Below are positions 1-6,199 of a stretch of 6,199 nucleotides of DNA, piece by piece (within the stretch, counting starts at the first letter, position 1; every line of letters begins with the position of its first letter). Below the pieces are notes generated by a model. It did no database searches. It had not been told where the DNA came from and saw only the letters and a list, made by a program, of their open reading frames with translations. The position numbers and the translations under genes are program-made. Origin of the DNA: Amoebophrya sp. A120 (Eukaryota; Protista; Dinoflagellata); the NCBI GenBank assembly GCA_905178155.1, contig CAJINV010000022.1, positions 633,473-639,671 on the forward strand. The letters run 5' to 3'.

Positions 1-389
1 TGGAACAAGCGCCAGCATGGGCTGGTCAGCGTGTAGAAGTTGTAGCGGGATTTTTTGCTTATGTTTCCAGTGCTGGAACGTCAAAATGCAATATTTTTTT
101 CAACAGGCGAAGATTAGCTGCATCGAAGCTTTTCAACCTCATCTTCCATGTTTTTGTCTTTATTTCAAACTCTACTGATACTGCAATTTCTACTTTTTAG
201 TTGATACAATATTTTCGGCATTTCCGCACACGACATCAAGATTTCATATACTTGATTTAGAAAACTTGAACTTGTCGGCCTTGTTGAAAAATTTTGTTTT
301 TCCTTTTATCTACTAGTCCCAGTAGTTTGCTGCGTACAATTTTATTTTCATCATTGATTCGACTGCAACATACACACGCCTGAAGCCCG

Positions 390-401
390 TGTCTCTTGCA
401 G
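390..401 (+). promoter_or_regulatory. Possible 3' splice or spliced-leader trans-splice acceptor upstream of the gene 1 start
   Basis: Pyrimidine-rich TGTCTCTTGCAG ends 11 nt before ATG 413. Motif resemblance only. Confidence 0.3.
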
Positions 402-412
402 ATTCAAAAACA

Positions 413-3400
413 ATGAAGCACGCACTGGCATCTCGGGTGCTCCTGCTTTTCTGGAGCACCAAATCTGTCCTGGTCGCCGCATCGGCCTCCAGCGACTCGT
501 CGCACACCAGAATCACTATGCGTTGCAAACGTACTTATCGTACTCGTAGAAATGCATCACAAATTTCGATTTCCTCAGCAGGAGAAACAAAATTTGTTCA
601 AATGCGAATTTAGCTTAAGAACAAGACTTGTAATGCATAACTGCAAGTACTACGAGTAGGTACGATACTTTTGCGCAGGATAATCCCCGACGGGCAGCAG
701 CAGGTGACCAACCCTCAAACGGCGCAGGAGTCTCTTGCGGGAGCTGGTGCAGCCGAATCTCCCAAAGCTACCGACGATGTGGTCCTTGAACCCGACAGCA
801 GTAGTACTTTTTTGACACCCAGCACGAGCGGCGCAGAAGGTGCCCTGCCAGAGTACGCCTGGGACCGGGTTTATTCGTTCTTGGCCGGCAATGGGGTCGC
901 GTCGGGCTCCTTCGATCAAAAAGCCTATGCTTTGCAAACATGTCTGGGTCTGGAAACTTGTGATGCTGGGTGGCGTATCATGAGGAGGCCGCGAGTCCTG
1001 GCTCAGCATGACAAGTTTTTGAGCTTCTAGATGTTGGCTCTTCTGCATGACAAACTGCGTTTCTGCATGACAGAAAAATGGGGCTCTTGGGTAAAGTGCA
1101 TGACAGATTTAAGAGTCATGCCAGACAAGCATGACAAACATGCACTTTTCCATACCCAGACAACATATTTGCGCTTGATAAAGCCGACCGCAAAGCAACT
1201 GTGGAAAACCTCGAAAGCCACCACGCAAAGACCAAGCAGGCGGCTGTGGTGGCGGCCGACCCGGGCACAATCCGTCCGGCGGTTTCTCAGAAGTGGCTCC
1301 AAGCTGCGGAAATCGTGCGCGCTGCTGGCCACAGTGGCGATAGTGGTACAGTAGGAAGCCAATCTGCCCTTACCGATGCTCATCTTGGCACCGCGACGAG
1401 AGACACCATGCTGCAAAAAGTTCTGAAGCGGAAACACCGTCTAGGCCCAGAGGGGACTGACGCAACCTCAAGCCTTGCTGCCGCAAGCAAGGCGAGTCGG
1501 AAGTTTGTGGAAAAAAAGACGAAGAATTATTTGCAAAACTGGTACAATAAAGCGACTGCCGGCATCGACAGAGCCCCTGGTCATTATCCTTTCATCGCAA
1601 AGGGACTGTTTTCTTGCACGGTGGAAGACTTTTATGACCTGCTTGCCGAGGCTATCCTGAGTAAAAACGTACCCACACCAGAGTCAAGATGGGGAGTTTG
1701 CAACACAAACCTAGGAGTTTTGTGAGTCACGCATGACAAGTTGCACTATGCAGTGTAGTGCAGGTCGGCAAGTGCAGCCGCATCACAGATTCATCTGCTC
1801 ATCCTGTTCACAGCATCACAAATTCCAAAACACGATTGGAAATGGCTCTCATGGGGATGCGCATTACAAGTCTTCCTGTCTTTGCAAATCTGCATTACAA
1901 CTCTGGTGTGGGTACGTTTTTACTCAGGATAGAGGCTCCGGACGACGAGATCGCGCACGCAGTGATGATCCACGGCGACGTCATGCCGAGCTGGCTTTCT
2001 GCGAACATTTTGCGCGAAAAGCTCCGGCCGCTCATCCAAGGAGCGCGCGAGCGTGGAGGTGGGACCGGTGGCCCCCGCCTGGAGGGTCACGGGGCAGGAA
2101 CGGCGACCGAAAGCCCCCCGACAAGCGCTGCTGGAATCACCCTTCCACACGGTGGCAGCCTGAGTGCGCAGGGCGAGTCCTTCATTGCTGTGCACAACGA
2201 CGTATGGGCAGATGACGGATTACATGGGCCAGACATGAGCGCAACCTCCCGGGCCCGCTTTCTGGAGCAAGTCGTGCGAGAGGATAATCCAAGTGCGTAC
2301 TACCCGAGGTTGTTTGTTTCGAACCCCGATTATGACCCTGACGTTCTTGTTCGTGGTCGCAGCCGCCGGACGGGCGATCGCATCACGTTGCGGCATATCA
2401 AATGCAACTATGTCTGGGTGTGGAAGATTGCCAGGTTTGTCATGCATATTTTGCATGACGCATGATGCCTGTAGTGCATGACTTAGCATCACAGATTTTT
2501 GGAAGGCATCCTAATGCCTATTCCGCATGGCAAATGCCCTCTCCGCGTAGCACAATCTGGGCTCCTCTTCCTGGTCATAGCACTACAGATCTTTTGAGAA
2601 TCCAAAGACAGCATTACAAGTTTGGATCCACCTTCCAGACCCAGACATTTTTGCGATGCATATGGCACAAGAAAAAATTTCAGGGGCGGTACGCCTACAG
2701 CGACGGTGGAGTTCATTCTACCTCGAGCATATTCTGAGAAAAAATCCCCCCTCCCCATACTACTCAAAACGGAAATTTGTGATGCTGATTTGTGACCACA
2801 AATCAGCTTCGTCTTGCATATGAGGCATCAAATGGGAGCCGTATCCCGCACTCGACAGCAAATCTGTCATGCGCTTTTACCTACCGCGCACCTGTCTGTC
2901 ATGCCGAGCTGCTAGCCTTTTGCATACTCAATCAGGCTTGAAAAATTATGCCTTCACGCTCTTGCCGCAATTATACACAGCTGATTTGTGTACAGAAATC
3001 CAGCATGGGGTGGGGGTTTTTTCATATTTCCTTTTTTGAATGGGGTGGGGGTTTTTTCATATTGATAGAGCAGTGGCTCCGATACCCTGCGTTACACTAC
3101 GGACTTCGACGCCACACGGGATATGGGGGTGTCAGGATTGAGATCGTCAAAGTTGAAATAGTTTGTCATGCATAAAATCGATACCAGTTGGAAGCCCAAT
3201 TTTCAAGCGGCGCATGACAAATTTAGGCACCGTCGAAATCCGGTCTGTCATGCTGTTTAGGGACAGAAGGCGTCTTTTGTCGTGCTACTTTACCAGCCCT
3301 ACCGCAGACCTCAAACAGGCTGACTGTCGGCCTCATTTGCCATCCCTGCAAGACAGGTACGTCATGCCTTGCATTTTATGCATGACAAATCATTTCAACT

Positions 3401-3588
3401 TTGTCGATTTCAAACCTGACGCTTCCATACGGGATCTCCTGAACGTTACCGCCGAGGAAGTCCATTTTGTCATCGTAGAGTCGCCGACGGTCATGACGCA
3501 TATTCGCTGCAAGCCGAAGAAAAATTGGGAATGCAAGCTGCAGATTTGTCAGCACAGCAGCAACGACCCTTTCTCGTCTCAGGGGTAA
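413..3588 (+). CDS. Gene 1: reconstructed 7-exon, 510-aa hypothetical protein, probably secreted. Exons 413-516, 688-925, 1186-1652, 1937-2395, 2668-2729, 3073-3121, 3435-3588; boundaries can slide within the 5-bp repeats.
   Basis: Removing six TIR elements plus one repeat copy each gives 1533 nt with no internal stop, from ATG 413 (context aaaaacaATG) to TAA 3586-3588. Junctions read SHTRI(T/P)DGQQ, FDQKADRKATVE, DLLAEAPDDEIA, RITLRHKKKFQG, HSTSSSGSDTLR and DATRDLLNVTAE. This joins parts of track ORFs 389-613, 671-1030, 1201-1725, 1758-2465, 2462-2737 and 3163-3588. The N-terminus MKHALASRVLLLFWSTKSVLVAASA looks like a signal peptide by eye. No family recognised with confidence. Confidence 0.85.
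517..682. mobile_element. Element E1 (166 bp): degenerate TIR element / putative non-canonical intron 1 of gene 1
   Basis: Left end TATGCGTTGCAAAC...TACTCGTAG versus reverse complement of right end TATCCTGCGCAAAA...TACTCGTAG (about 22/33 matches). Flanks ATCAC (512-516) and ATCCC (683-687). Contains an in-frame TAG at 611-613, and removing 171 nt keeps the frame. Confidence 0.72.
926..1180. mobile_element. Element E2 (255 bp), family A: putative non-canonical intron 2 of gene 1
   Basis: TIR core TGTCTGGGTCTGGAA (941-955) / TTCCATACCCAGACA (1148-1162). Perfect repeat AAGCC at 921-925 and 1181-1185. About 87% identical to the reverse complement of E7. Removing 260 nt restores the frame. Confidence 0.9.
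1653..1931. mobile_element. Element E3 (279 bp) with a perfect 32-bp TIR: putative non-canonical intron 3 of gene 1
   Basis: TATCCTGAGTAAAAACGTACCCACACCAGAGT (1653-1684) is the exact reverse complement of 1900-1931. Perfect repeat GAGGC at 1648-1652 and 1932-1936. Removing 284 nt restores the frame. Confidence 0.93.
2396..2662. mobile_element. Element E4 (267 bp), diverged family A: putative non-canonical intron 4 of gene 1
   Basis: TIR core ATGTCTGGGTGTGGAAG (2410-2426) / CTTCCAGACCCAGACAT (2632-2648). Flanks CGGCA (2391-2395) and TGGCA (2663-2667). The right end TTCCAGACCCAGACATTTTTGC is identical to that of E7. Removing 272 nt restores the frame. Confidence 0.88.
2730..3067. mobile_element. 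Element E5 (338 bp), family B: putative non-canonical intron 5 of gene 1
   Basis: TIR core GAAAAAATCCCCCCTCCCCAT / ATGGGGTGGGGGTTTTTTC. Perfect repeat GAGCA at 2725-2729 and 3068-3072. The interior is collinear with the reverse complement of E8. Removing 343 nt restores the frame. Confidence 0.88.
3005..3063 (+). repeat. Exact 24-bp direct duplication of the inner right TIR of E5
   Basis: ATGGGGTGGGGGTTTTTTCATATT occurs at 3005-3028 and 3040-3063. Confidence 0.9.
3122..3429. mobile_element. Element E6 (308 bp) with a ~57-bp imperfect TIR: putative non-canonical intron 6 of gene 1
   Basis: 3122-3178 (TATGGGGGTGTCAGGATTGAGATCGTCAAAGTTGAAATAGTTTGTCATGCATAAAAT) pairs without gaps with 3373-3429 (reverse complement TATGGAAGCGTCAGGTTTGAAATCGACAAAGTTGAAATGATTTGTCATGCATAAAAT). 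Perfect repeat CGGGA at 3117-3121 and 3430-3434. Removing 313 nt restores the frame. Confidence 0.92.
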
Positions 3589-4847
3589 GGCGGTCCACCT
3601 GACATTGGTACCTTTTTTGGTGCGCCGAACTTTTGGACTTTGACAGCATAACATTCTTATGCAGTTCGGCGTGGTCAGACTGAATAGAGATCCAGCTCCT
3701 GCTGCGCCATGATATCACTTGTGATGTCTGCTGCTGCTAATGACCTCTGTTTGGCGGCCTTATCTTTCCGGAAAAGATATGGTCGAAGCTAGGATATTTC
3801 ACATGCACTTACACACTGCTTTTTCTATACGATTTTTTACCGCAGAATGCCTTATTCTTTGGTCGTGTCCTGTCGTGATCGTTCATATACAATTTTTTTT
3901 ACCGCAACTCTGAGGAAGCCAGTTCTTGCTTCTATCATCAAGGCCGGGGCACAGGGGAAAGGTTTCGACAAAAGACCATTAGCCTTCAACAACTAGGAAG
4001 AACTTTATCATCACTTTGATTTTAAAGCGCTATTGCAAAAGATTTTGATTCAGGGTCGTGCGCGCAAGCGCAGCGCGCAGCTTATTTTATTTTTGTGCAG
4101 TCCATTCTACAACAACGTTAGATGACACATCAGTAGGCTACACTGCTGATAAATTTCAGCCAGGAACAAATAGTGCCGCCGACGTTCGTCTTCTCGCTAG
4201 AACTTATGCGCCACTATCTTTTTGACCACTGCCGCTAGCCACGCTTTGATACGCACTGGGCCGACGACCATCTGGGTATGCCATGTTGTGCTGGATCTAC
4301 AGTTCCCGCAGGTGGCGCGGTGCTTGGTCGACCTCGATCCTGTTCGCGTCAAGTAGTACAAGTCCTGGTATTCCTTCGGGGGACAAAGCAACCCCGAGCG
4401 AGAGCTCGACGAGATCATTTCTTCGATTGATATCGCCATCACCGAACTGTAGGAAAATACGCAGATCTGTCATTGTCGTTTTGCGATAAGTTTTCGCGAG
4501 ATGTCAGTCAAGGGTGGACCTGCAGTGAAGATCACTGTTTCAACGAATTGCTTTTGTGTGATGAGACATTTCTTTTGCAAATATAGAATTTAACACCCCA
4601 GAAATGCCAGCCTTTTAGTTTTATGCACCTTTTTGAGGCAAATATCGCGGTCGTCTTCTACTTAGTTCATTTCTTATTTCTTACCTCACATAAGTGCCAG
4701 CACCGGCTTCTTTCCTTAAATATTTTGTCCATATTTTTCTCGTGCGATTTCACTAAGCGCAGAACAAGGTTTGTTCTGTCATCAGTACGCGCCGCGCTCT
4801 ACTTGCCGCAACTTCAACATCTCTAGCTGTAATATACGGATAGAATT

Positions 4848-6199
4848 ATGGTCGCCTTTTTGAAGAAAAAGATGCTCGGGTCAATGTTGGGCCCATGCAT
4901 GATCTTATTCAGCGCAGGAGCCCCTCGCTTCGCGCTGGCTGCCGCGCCAGGAGCAGCACCTTCTGGAGGTCGTGATATTTTTGCAGGAACCGGCCTAGAA
5001 GATACAGGCGCGCTTGAGGTTGTCGGGCGCAGGAGGCTATCAAGTGCAAAAATGTCTGGGTCGGGAAGAATGCAAGTTTGTCATGCTTGTCTCACATGAC
5101 TTTTGAATTTGTCATGCACATTACCCAAGAGCCCCATTTTTCTGTCATGCAGAAACGCAGTTTGTCATGCGGAATAGGCAACACCTAGAAGCTCAGGAAC
5201 TTGTCATGCTGAGCCAGCACCTGTGGCCTCCTCATGATACGCCACCCAGCATCACAAGTTTCCAGACCCAGACATTTTTGCATTTGGTAGAGGCCGGCGC
5301 CGGCCGCTGGCGAAGATGGTGGTCGCCCAACGAGATTTCTGCGCCGGACTTTTCCTTATCGTAAGGAAAAATCCCCCCTCCCCATATCAAAACGATGTTT
5401 CTGATGCTTGATTTGCGTACACAAATTAGATTTGTCTTGCTGGCGAGGACTGCAGGCCCATATCAAGCCTGAGTAGACAGGTTTGGGCCTAGGCGCTTAG
5501 CATGACAGACGTCTACGCTGTAGGAGCAACAGCATGACAAACCGCCTGTAGAATGTGGCGGAGCCTGTAGATTTGCCTTCATGCAATACAGCGACGATTT
5601 GTGGTCTCAAATCAGCATCACAAATTTTCAGGAGTGTCCCGGTTTGGTATGGGGAGGGGGGATTTTTCCTCACAATATTCCTGATCAGCATGCTAGTAGC
5701 GGGTCCAGCTTTTTATCCGACAGAAAAGTACGGACTTATGTTTACCTCAACACTGGAAAATCATTTATTGTGTTTGTCATGCAATTTTCAGCATCACAAA
5801 AAAATTCCTGTTGTCTGTTCAACATGGCAAGCTTTTTCGGTACATATCGTTATCCTCCCCATGCACATCGTGCATCACAAATGCGAATTCCGTTGTGCGG
5901 GGCGAAAAAGTATCGGCAAAATAGTTGTCTCTGCAAAGCAGAATTTTTAGCGGCACAAATTTTTGTTGAGCAAAACAAGTCACAAAACACAGATTTAGAT
6001 ATGTTTTTTTGCTGCCATGGCGATGGCCGTACTTTTCTGAATGATAATCTTCGACGACGCAGCCAGAGATCGGAATTGTGAATCCCAACAACCTGTGCTG
6101 GATGATCAGCTTGTCGCAGAGTTTGGTCTACATTCCGTCCCTGCACGAGGAAGCCGCGGCGGTGTGCGCGCGAAGAGATGAGGAGCAGCGATTGCTAGG
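4848..6199 (+). CDS. Gene 2 (3' end beyond window): ubiquitin-specific protease (USP, peptidase C19)-like protein with a signal-peptide-like N-terminus. Exons 4848-5037, 5295-5356, 5683-5713, 6052->6199.
   Basis: Removing three elements gives MVAFLKKKMLGSMLGPCMILFSAGAPRFALAAAP...VVGRRRPAPAAGEDGGRPTRFLRRTFPDQHASSGSSFSTTQPEIGIVNPNNLCWMISLSQSLVYIPSLHEE..., open to the window edge. GIVNPNNLCWMISLSQSLVYIP (6072-6137) fits the USP Cys box GLxNxGNTCYMNSxLQxLxxxP, with Cys at 6096-6098 and Asn five residues upstream. In unspliced DNA this frame is closed by TAA 6045-6047, with no ATG before the Cys. The His box is not in the window. The start could be ATG 4848, 4872 or 4884. Confidence 0.8.
5038..5289. 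mobile_element. Element E7 (252 bp), family A, inverted relative to E2: putative non-canonical intron 1 of gene 2
   Basis: Left TATCAAGTGCAAAAATGTCTGGGTCGGGAA versus reverse complement of right TACCAAATGCAAAAATGTCTGGGTCTGGAA (27/30). Perfect repeat GAGGC at 5033-5037 and 5290-5294. Removing 257 nt keeps the frame open. Confidence 0.92.
5357..5677. mobile_element. Element E8 (321 bp), family B, inverted relative to E5: putative non-canonical intron 2 of gene 2
   Basis: Left TATCGTAAGGAAAAATCCCCCCTCCCCATA versus reverse complement of right TATTGTGAGGAAAAATCCCCCCTCCCCATA (28/30). Perfect repeat TTCCT at 5352-5356 and 5678-5682. Removing 326 nt keeps the frame open. Confidence 0.92.
5714..6046. 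mobile_element. Element E9 (333 bp): putative non-canonical intron 3 of gene 2
   Basis: Left TATCCGACAGAAAAGTACGG versus reverse complement of right TATCATTCAGAAAAGTACGG (17/20). Degenerate flanks CTTTT (5709-5713) and ATCTT (6047-6051). Removing 338 nt joins the upstream exons in frame to the USP Cys box. Confidence 0.85.

What the first reader, a model, noticed from the sequence alone, without database searches (positions are those of the whole stretch)
517..6046. Bipartite end signal TAT-N7-AAA is conserved while the spacer loses complementarity
Seen: 14 of 18 element ends read exactly TAT-N7-AAA inward. The exceptions are E4 left (AAC), E7 right (TAC) and both ends of E6. The N7 spacers often differ between the two ends of one element (E1 GCGTTGC/CCTGCGC, E2 GCTTTGC/CAAGCGC, E5 TCTGAGA/CAATATG, E9 CCGACAG/CATTCAG). 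Inference: the two triplets, 10 bp or about one helical turn apart, are read as sequence, and perfect pairing at the stem base is not needed. I recall a TAT/seven variable bases/AAA motif being reported for Amoebophrya strain A120, which would point to the source organism (unverified).
Basis: partly seen in the sequence, partly recalled or inferred. Interest (0 to 1): 0.7.

Follow-up and report, generated by a model that had tools for sequence, protein, structure and literature searches.

The report
Transposon end signal of Amoebophrya introns
Nine short mobile elements interrupting two genes of what is likely an Amoebophrya-type marine parasite carry an end motif that is already published and is likely read by the enzyme that moves them, and related copies show that only a few letters between its two fixed triplets vary freely.

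Summary
Observation confirmed: 14 of 18 ends read TAT-N7-AAA. The motif is published for Amoebophrya A120 introners (PMC7789003), and 5-bp duplications with TA..TA termini are listed for A120 family 38 (PMC12130899 supplement). All nine elements are skipped, each with one 5-nt duplication copy, in contigs that are likely RNA.

The interpretation needs correcting. In 133 related copies, positions 6, 8 and 9 are about as fixed as the triplets. Only 4, 5 and 7 are uncoupled between the two ends; 10 and 14 covary. The mismatch is not decay after insertion: it is present in 86 of 112 copies with a perfect duplication, and in the E1 family it is tied to one side in 11 of 13. AAA is not needed for removal: E6 lacks it at both ends. 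Best reading: a transposase end signal reused as an intron boundary.

Not found in my searches: spacer letters turn over faster than the element body (29% vs 9.5%), and all nine elements carry an internal GCATSACA repeat. The scan noted similar hairpin introns on other DNA. Motif already known; interest 0.35.

The parts
517..682 (.). E1, TIR element, 166 bp; ends TAT-GCGTTGC-AAA / TAT-CCTGCGC-AAA; 5-nt duplication 4 of 5
   Evidence: Joint 515/687 in 4 of 4 runs; 12 complete relatives in the loci
926..1180 (.). E2, 255 bp; same subfamily as E7, inserted in the opposite orientation; duplication 5 of 5
   Evidence: Joint 919/1180 or 920/1181 in 4 of 4 runs; inverted match to E7, 230 nt at 90%
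1653..1931 (.). E3, 279 bp; perfect 32-bp terminal inverted repeat; duplication 5 of 5
   Evidence: Joint 1647/1932 in 4 of 4 runs
2396..2662 (.). E4, 267 bp; left end has AAC at 11-13; duplication 4 of 5
   Evidence: Joint 2391/2664 in 4 of 4 runs
2730..3067 (.). E5, 338 bp; shares its inner TIR with E8; duplication 5 of 5
   Evidence: Joint 2724/3068 in 4 of 4 runs
3122..3429 (.). E6, 308 bp; TAT ends but TCA instead of AAA at both ends; duplication 5 of 5
   Evidence: Joint 3115/3429 in 4 of 4 runs
5038..5289 (.). E7, 252 bp; right end TAC (G-U wobble at pair 3 in + strand RNA); duplication 5 of 5
   Evidence: Joint 5032/5290 in 3 of 4 runs
5357..5677 (.). E8, 321 bp; duplication 5 of 5
   Evidence: Joint 5351/5678 in 4 of 4 runs
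5714..6046 (.). E9, 333 bp; low-copy element with a weak duplication (CTTTT / ATCTT) but the same +5 skip
   Evidence: Joint 5711/6050 in 4 of 4 runs; interior depth 30-49 in DNA-like runs; no BLAST hit in 138 loci
413..3590 (+). Host gene 1: 510-aa open frame once E1-E6 plus one duplication copy each are removed; end coordinate approximate; no Pfam hit in the 3 exon pieces scanned
   Evidence: strand inferred from the open frame, not from stranded reads
4848..6180 (+). Host gene 2: 143-aa open frame once E7-E9 are removed; end coordinate approximate; no Pfam hit in the 2 exon pieces scanned
554..5880 (.). Internal repeat GCAT[GC]ACA, 1-6 copies per element in both orientations; 31 of 31 window hits lie inside the elements
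   Evidence: families D1, D2, D5

Best explanation
The nine elements are short inverted-repeat insertions flanked by 5-nt duplications, of the kind described as Amoebophrya A120 introners, and TAT-N7-AAA is likely the DNA end signal of the transposase that would move them, reused as an intron boundary. Shown: fixed ends, 5-nt duplications, high copy number, both orientations relative to the host frame, and exact skipping of element plus 5 nt in contigs of one sample. Inferred: those contigs are RNA; TAT..ATA is the cleavage end of an integrase-related DDE transposase acting in trans; positions 8-13 onward and the internal GCATSACA repeats are binding sites; positions 4, 5 and 7 are not contacted and so are free. 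The two ends differ there because elements are inserted with unlike ends, inherited as a left/right asymmetry and then reshuffled by recombination between the shared TIRs. Removal from RNA likely uses TAT..ATA and the inner stem, cutting 0-1 nt before TAT and 4-5 nt after ATA. It needs neither AAA nor the bubble.
For: Duplication: exact 5-nt in 112 of 145 anchor-found copies, against 0-13 of 145 for other lengths from 2 to 9. Positions 1-14 were not part of the search pattern, yet 256 of 284 ends from the main assembly are exact TAT-N7-AAA. Copy number: element bins reach depth 1e4-1e5 against about 30-60 for single-copy DNA in X5/X6. Skipping: all nine skips equal element+5 and restore a 510-aa frame; 8 of 9 skips are not multiples of 3. 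AAA or bubble not needed: E6 (no AAA), E4 (AAC), E7 (TAC) and E3 (no bubble) are all skipped. No donor/acceptor difference in end sequence in 67 of 133 strand-called copies (G at position 4: 20 vs 23), and both orientations occur. No G-U preference among mismatches: 8 vs 7 at position 10, 14 vs 11 at 4-8. Departures from TAT (12 of 798) are about as frequent as duplication decay per copy-site (21 of 1330). The E1 family keeps the CC-type end on one side in 11 of 13, with one swapped and one double-G copy. [quoted passage not shown] IS3EU/GingerRoot have TA..TA termini (PMC10045372 passage).
Against: No transposase was found or could be searched for: no whole genome is held, and Farhat et al. 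report no transposase in A120 (section 16). If only one duplication copy is free to drift, TAT decays more slowly than neutral (1.5% vs 3.2%, p=0.05), and AAA is lower still (6 of 798). Selection after insertion, for splicing, is therefore not excluded. Over all free positions G-U mismatches lean upward (40 vs 26, p=0.11). E9 keeps perfect triplets and pairing at 8-20 although its duplication has decayed, which suits selection in RNA. In the large family, spacer type is only weakly tied to side (G at position 4: 25 vs 43 of 117), so inherited asymmetry alone does not explain it. RNA status of X1-X4 is the tool's guess, all four are one sample, most joints are flagged 'between: not known', and contigs give no strand. 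The 133 copies come from one other assembly and mostly one family, and are not shown to be the window's strain.
Confidence: 0.7

Rival explanations
1. The motif is mainly an RNA splice signal. A U1-less or protein-based splicing machine reads UAU and AAA on a stem-bubble-stem formed by the intron ends, and this keeps the triplets fixed.
For: No GT..AG in any allowed register of the nine joints; GC..AG is possible only for E3 and E7. U1 was not detected in A25/A120 (PMC7789003 section 10). Pairs 1-3 hold in 27 of 27 with wobble. AAA departures are rare (6 of 798), and E9 keeps its ends despite a decayed duplication.
Against: E6 lacks AAA at both ends and E3 lacks the bubble, yet both are skipped at the depth of their neighbours. 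No 5'/3' asymmetry and no significant G-U bias. Mirror pairing of 1-3 is predicted at 0.05 or less for E1, E2 and E5. This rival is not exclusive: TAT may serve both processes.
Confidence: 0.2
2. The spacer mismatch is ordinary decay after insertion of once-perfect inverted repeats, with the triplets kept by selection.
For: At E9, contigs of X5/X6 differ from the window at position 4 of the left end, position 7 of the right end and the first letter of the downstream duplication copy. These sites can therefore change in place.
Against: 104 of 133 copies differ at 4-7 between their ends, including 86 of 112 with a perfect duplication. The same few multi-letter spacer types recur at both ends of different subfamilies. 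0 of 13 E1-family copies have matching ends.
Confidence: 0.05
3. The ends are rewritten at each round of copying, for example by template switching between element copies or through the excised intron RNA, so the terminal 14 nt are drawn from a shared pool rather than inherited with the body.
For: In 20 close pairs chosen on half the interior columns, the held-out interior differs at 183 of 1930 sites (9.5%), positions 4-7 at 46 of 160 (29%) and the triplets at 6 of 240. Positions 10 and 14 covary across the two ends within subfamilies (81 vs 62 and 88 vs 66 of 117), but mostly do not track interior similarity.
Against: End differences still fall as interior identity rises (Spearman -0.20). 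Interiors also have hot columns (6-11%) and look mosaic, so plain ectopic conversion plus selection on most interior sites could give the same pattern. No mechanism was observed.
Confidence: 0.15

Closest known systems
Introner elements of Amoebophrya sp. A120 (Farhat et al. 2021, PMC7789003; seen: abstract, passages of sections 11, 17, 32 and 34, whole sections 10, 12 and 16, supplement legends S19-S27; figures not visible)
   Same: TAT, seven less-conserved letters, three or more A; 5-bp direct repeats; non-canonical borders; repeated families; hairpin potential.
   Different: The text I read gives no left/right covariation, no single cut register, no internal GCATSACA repeat and no spacer turnover. 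Figures 3, 4 and S19-S25 could hold some of this. The window's strain was not determined.
A120 introner family 38 and other A120 TIR families (Gozashti et al. 2025, PMC12130899; seen: passages, 22 of 58 A120 rows of supplement file 8 plus row 580; files 13-14 not searched)
   Same: TIR DNA elements; family 38 is annotated Ginger, 5-bp TSD, TA/TA termini, with a region similar to Copia/Gypsy elements.
   Different: Family 38 is about 810 bp with open frames; the window's elements are 166-338 bp. I could not compare family 38's end sequence.
Integrase-related DNA transposons: IS3EU/GingerRoot, Ginger2/TDD, IS481EU (PMC10045372 and PMC2836005, passages)
   Same: TA..TA termini (IS3EU/GingerRoot), TNT..AYA (IS481EU), 5-bp duplication (TDD-4/5).
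   Different: No single family there combines TAT ends with a 5-bp duplication: IS3EU usually 6 bp, Ginger2 TGTNR, IS481EU about 4, 15 or 25 bp. No transposase sequence was available here.
Tn7 end architecture (PMC9308760, passages)
   Same: Imperfect inverted ends made of a short terminal sequence plus an array of weakly conserved internal binding sites, with left/right asymmetry.
   Different: Bacterial system. This is an analogy of layout only; no homology was tested.
Euglenid nonconventional introns (review PMC11282704, passages)
   Same: TIR-derived stem joining the intron ends, duplication-like repeats at junctions, non-canonical borders.
   Different: Their CAG/CTG pair at +4..6 and -8..-6 is absent here, and here the stem's outer edge is offset 4-5 nt from the 3' cut.

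Membership tests
Amoebophrya A120-type introner element | End motif TAT + 7 + at least three A | tested here: met
   14 of 18 window ends; 256 of 284 ends of related copies; definition
Amoebophrya A120-type introner element | 3-5 nt direct repeat at the exon/intron borders | tested here: met
   5 of 5 in six elements, 4 of 5 in two, weak in E9; 112 of 145 exact in loci
Amoebophrya A120-type introner element | Removed from transcripts without canonical splice sites | tested here: met
   Nine joints in contigs of one sample that are likely RNA; no GT..AG in any register
Amoebophrya A120-type introner element | Repeated in the genome | tested here: met
   Depth of 1e3-1e5 over the bins of E1-E8 except the right half of E5 (about 900-1,500); E9 is near single-copy; BLAST to loci
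Amoebophrya A120-type introner element | Source is strain A120 | not tested
   No named genome held; organism label coded. The A25 motif (TTA, two purines) does not fit.
Non-autonomous TIR DNA transposon (MITE) | TIRs, fixed-length duplication, short non-coding body | tested here: met
   166-338 bp
Non-autonomous TIR DNA transposon (MITE) | Cognate transposase with the same ends | not testable with these tools
   No genome; end pattern gave 0 hits in viral and prokaryote collections
Ginger1/Ginger2 | TGTNR termini | tested here: not met
   Ends are TAT; definition
IS3EU/GingerRoot | TA..TA termini | tested here: met
IS3EU/GingerRoot | Usually 6-bp duplication | tested here: not met
   0 of 145 at 6 bp, 112 of 145 at 5 bp
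Canonical U2 spliceosomal intron | GT/GC..AG ends | tested here: not met
   GC..AG possible in 2 of 9 and outside the common register; GT..AG in 0 of 9
Euglenid nonconventional intron | CAG at +4..6 pairing CTG at -8..-6 | tested here: not met
   End sequences; definition

The most novel reading that the evidence does not exclude
The terminal 14 nt of these introners form an exchangeable module, shared across otherwise diverged subfamilies and swapped or rewritten faster than the body. The introns are cut from RNA by a machine that needs only UAU..AUA and an inner stem, works in either orientation, and measures a fixed 0-1 / 4-5 nt offset that restores the host sequence exactly.
Probability: 0.3. 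Interest if true: 0.65.

Novelty: already known. Interest (0 to 1): 0.35.

Why it matters
How Amoebophrya removes tens of thousands of non-canonical introns with no detectable U1, and what mobilises them, are open questions in the papers read. The motif adds nothing new by itself. The position map does narrow the tests. It gives a common cut register (0-1 nt before TAT, 4-5 nt after ATA), shows that AAA and the bubble are dispensable for removal, lists fixed versus free end positions for a transposase, and adds an internal repeat that could serve to pull down the binding protein or to find the autonomous element.

Tried and rejected
No whole genome is held for the window, and the metagenome records behind the loci could not be searched further, so no genome-wide survey or transposase search was possible. 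No RNA holder was listed on record. End patterns gave 0 hits in viral contigs and genome contigs. Random shuffling of element halves was rejected: halves pair in fixed subfamilies. A link between spacer letters and the adjacent target sequence was rejected: 5 of 50 tests had p of 0.05 or less, the lowest 0.005. A donor-side versus acceptor-side spacer preference was rejected. The idea that the end is TAT plus a copy of the internal repeat stays open: the match is 7-9 of 10 for G-type ends but 3-6 of 10 for the others. The strict motif-blind scan recovers only 4 of the 9 window elements, so it undersamples imperfect TIRs. Pfam gave nothing for 5 exon pieces. Look-ups of earlier findings by place and by sequence were empty. 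Literature searches. One search listed no paper holding the internal repeat together with Amoebophrya or introner terms; subscription papers and figures are not covered.
Full report
1. Observation. The window holds nine inverted-repeat elements (coordinates under parts). The pattern occurs 21 times against 3.1 expected, and no shuffle of 200 reached 21. The edges do not depend on the motif. Contigs of runs X1-X4 join across every element, E7 in 3 of 4 runs and the others in 4 of 4, and each skip is the element plus exactly 5 nt. The 5-nt flanks match 5 of 5 in six elements and 4 of 5 in E1 and E4, and are weak in E9.

2. These are likely introns. Removing E1-E6 gives a 510-aa open frame from 413 on the + strand. 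Removing E7-E9 gives a 143-aa frame from 4848. Eight of nine skips are not multiples of three. X1-X4 are one sample and their RNA status is the tool's guess. They behave like RNA: E9's interior has no cover and element bins stay at or below about 320. In X5/X6 E9's interior is covered, pieces cross element/exon edges, and element bins reach 1e4-1e5 against about 30-60 for single-copy DNA. The joint table for X5/X6 was cut (15 rows shown, 583 not), so absence of the joined form in DNA is not shown. Strand is inferred from the frame. No allowed register gives GT..AG, and GC..AG is possible only for E3 and E7. The one register shared by all nine is a 5' cut 0 or 1 nt before TAT and a 3' cut 5 or 4 nt after ATA. 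It rests on the three mismatched duplications (E1, E4, E9). E2 and E7 belong to one subfamily in opposite orientation, and both are skipped.

3. Where the ends fail to match. In the window, left/right identity is 26 of 27 at positions 1-3, 20 of 45 at 4-8, 15 of 18 at 9-10, 26 of 27 at 11-13 and 53 of 63 at 14-20. Of 148 matches, 2 were dropped at contig edges and 1 as a duplicate, leaving 145. Three came from other records and have unrelated ends. Of the remaining 142, 256 of 284 ends are exact TAT-N7-AAA and 112 have an exact 5-nt duplication. Nine more were dropped for a duplication under 4 of 5 at the fixed register, leaving 133. These are relatives of E2, E4 and E7 (best full-length hits 83-92%). 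No exon matched, so they are not shown to be the window's strain.

In the 133, positions 1-3 and 11-13 are 98-100% fixed, and so nearly are 6 (A, 97%), 8 (T, 97%) and 9 (G, 98%). The variable positions are 4, 5, 7, 10 and 14. Within oriented subfamilies (117 copies, E2, E4 and E7 included), positions 10 and 14 match between the ends more often than permutation gives: 81 vs 62 and 88 vs 66, with 0 of 3000 permutations as high. Position 4 is at chance (66 vs 66), and 5 and 7 are slightly below it (66 vs 72; 34 vs 44). A motif-blind scan of the flanks gave 25 hits outside the anchor family. 16 have TAT at both duplication-defined edges, and 31 of their 32 ends have AAA; the other 9 are register shifts or internal repeats. 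With one weight per family over nine families, positions 11-13 carry 1.5-1.9 bits and 4-10 carry 0.05-0.81 bits (five families have 1-2 copies). The bipartite picture holds across families and is too simple within one.

4. Inherited, not decayed. 104 of 133 copies differ at 4-7 between their ends, including 86 of 112 whose duplication is still perfect. The spacer takes a few recurring forms (CAAAT, GCATT, CAACT, CAAGT, GGATT) at both ends of different subfamilies. In the E1 family 0 of 13 copies have matching ends. Eleven carry the CC-type end on the same side of the body, one has the ends swapped and one has two G-type ends. This points to a built-in asymmetry with occasional exchange between ends. 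In the large family the link to side is weak (25 vs 43 of 117), and the free sites change quickly: in 20 close pairs the held-out interior differs at 9.5%, positions 4-7 at 29%, all of 1-14 at 14.8% (p=5e-4) and the triplets at 2.5%. Against over-reading this: end differences still track interior identity weakly (Spearman -0.20), and 6-11% of interior columns are as variable. At E9, DNA-like contigs differ from the window at position 4, at position 7 and in the downstream duplication copy (table cut).

5. What reads the signal. For a DNA-level reader: E6 (no AAA), E4 (AAC), E7 (TAC) and E3 (no bubble) are all skipped. In 67 of 133 copies with a confident strand call from a codon model there is no 5'/3' difference, and both orientations occur. 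Mismatches show no significant G-U preference (8 vs 7 at position 10; 40 vs 26 overall, p=0.11). TAT departures (12 of 798) equal duplication decay if both copies drift (21 of 1330). For a role in RNA: the same comparison gives p=0.05 if only one copy drifts, AAA departures are rarer (6 of 798), the filter on duplications lowers the decay estimate, and E9 keeps its ends. Predicted folds pair the ends in mirror register in 6 of 9 elements, but not in E1, E2 or E5. All nine elements carry GCAT[GC]ACA. All 31 window hits lie in the 2,519 nt of elements and none in the 3,680 nt outside; the loci give 447 in 34,587 nt of elements against 3 in 22,330 nt of exon context. A short terminal sequence plus internal site arrays is the Tn7 layout (PMC9308760 passages); that is an analogy only. 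I commit to a transposase end signal reused as an intron boundary, at 0.7. The transposase, its binding sites and the splicing chemistry are all inferred.

6. Known work. Gozashti et al. 2025 class many A120 families as TIR DNA and list family 38 as Ginger, 5-bp TSD, TA/TA termini, while their text notes that it lacks the termini expected for Gingers. IS3EU/GingerRoot share TA..TA but usually duplicate 6 bp. Ginger2 has TGTNR ends. PMC12005148 (passages) says such introns are confined to part of the genus. The position-level covariation, the common cut register and the internal repeat were not in the text I read or in searches. Figures, and supplement files 13-14 of PMC12130899, were not visible and may hold some of it.

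7. Verdict. Interest 0.35. The most novel reading not excluded is exchangeable end modules plus an orientation-blind, fixed-offset splicing rule (probability 0.3, interest 0.65).

Noticed in passing
window, inside E1-E9 (e.g. 2436-2448, 3162-3174, 3377-3389): Internal repeat GCAT[GC]ACA in both orientations in all nine elements and in other families. Three copies read TATGCATGACAAA and so match the end pattern while facing outward; in E4 and E6 they end 53 nt from the element edge.
   Followed up: partly
L007:641-789; L066:90-251: E1-family copy whose two ends are swapped relative to the body, and a copy with two G-type ends. These look like exchange or inversion between the TIRs.
   Followed up: partly
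67 strand-called loci: The position just before the 5' TAT falls in one codon phase in 35 of 67 copies against 16 and 16. Frames come from a codon model, so this is provisional.
   Followed up: no
window 1220-1594 and 4795-4997: Exon letters differ between runs of one sample, and in-frame 3-nt indels occur. This suggests several alleles or paralogs of both host genes, not editing.
   Followed up: no
window 388-415: A pyrimidine-rich stretch ending in CAG lies just before the ATG at 413 and could be a trans-splice acceptor (recalled feature; no leader seen in the rows shown).
   Followed up: no
window 413-490 and 4848-4950: Both host proteins begin with hydrophobic, signal-peptide-like stretches and have no Pfam match in the pieces scanned.
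   Followed up: partly
window 5349-5370: The host flank and E8's left end form a perfect 9-bp local hairpin. No general spacer-to-flank link was found in 133 copies, so it is probably chance.
   Followed up: partly
L024:279-564: An unrelated inverted-repeat element from another record, with TGT..ACA-type ends, caught by the same anchor.
   Followed up: no
L063:28-240, L110:619-785, L112:615-765, L128:590-704: Further TAT-N7-AAA families with different inner TIRs and exact 5-nt duplications.
   Followed up: partly
window 3590-4350: The stretch after gene 1's stop is covered by one contig at exon-like depth in X1-X4; possibly a long 3' untranslated region.
   Followed up: no
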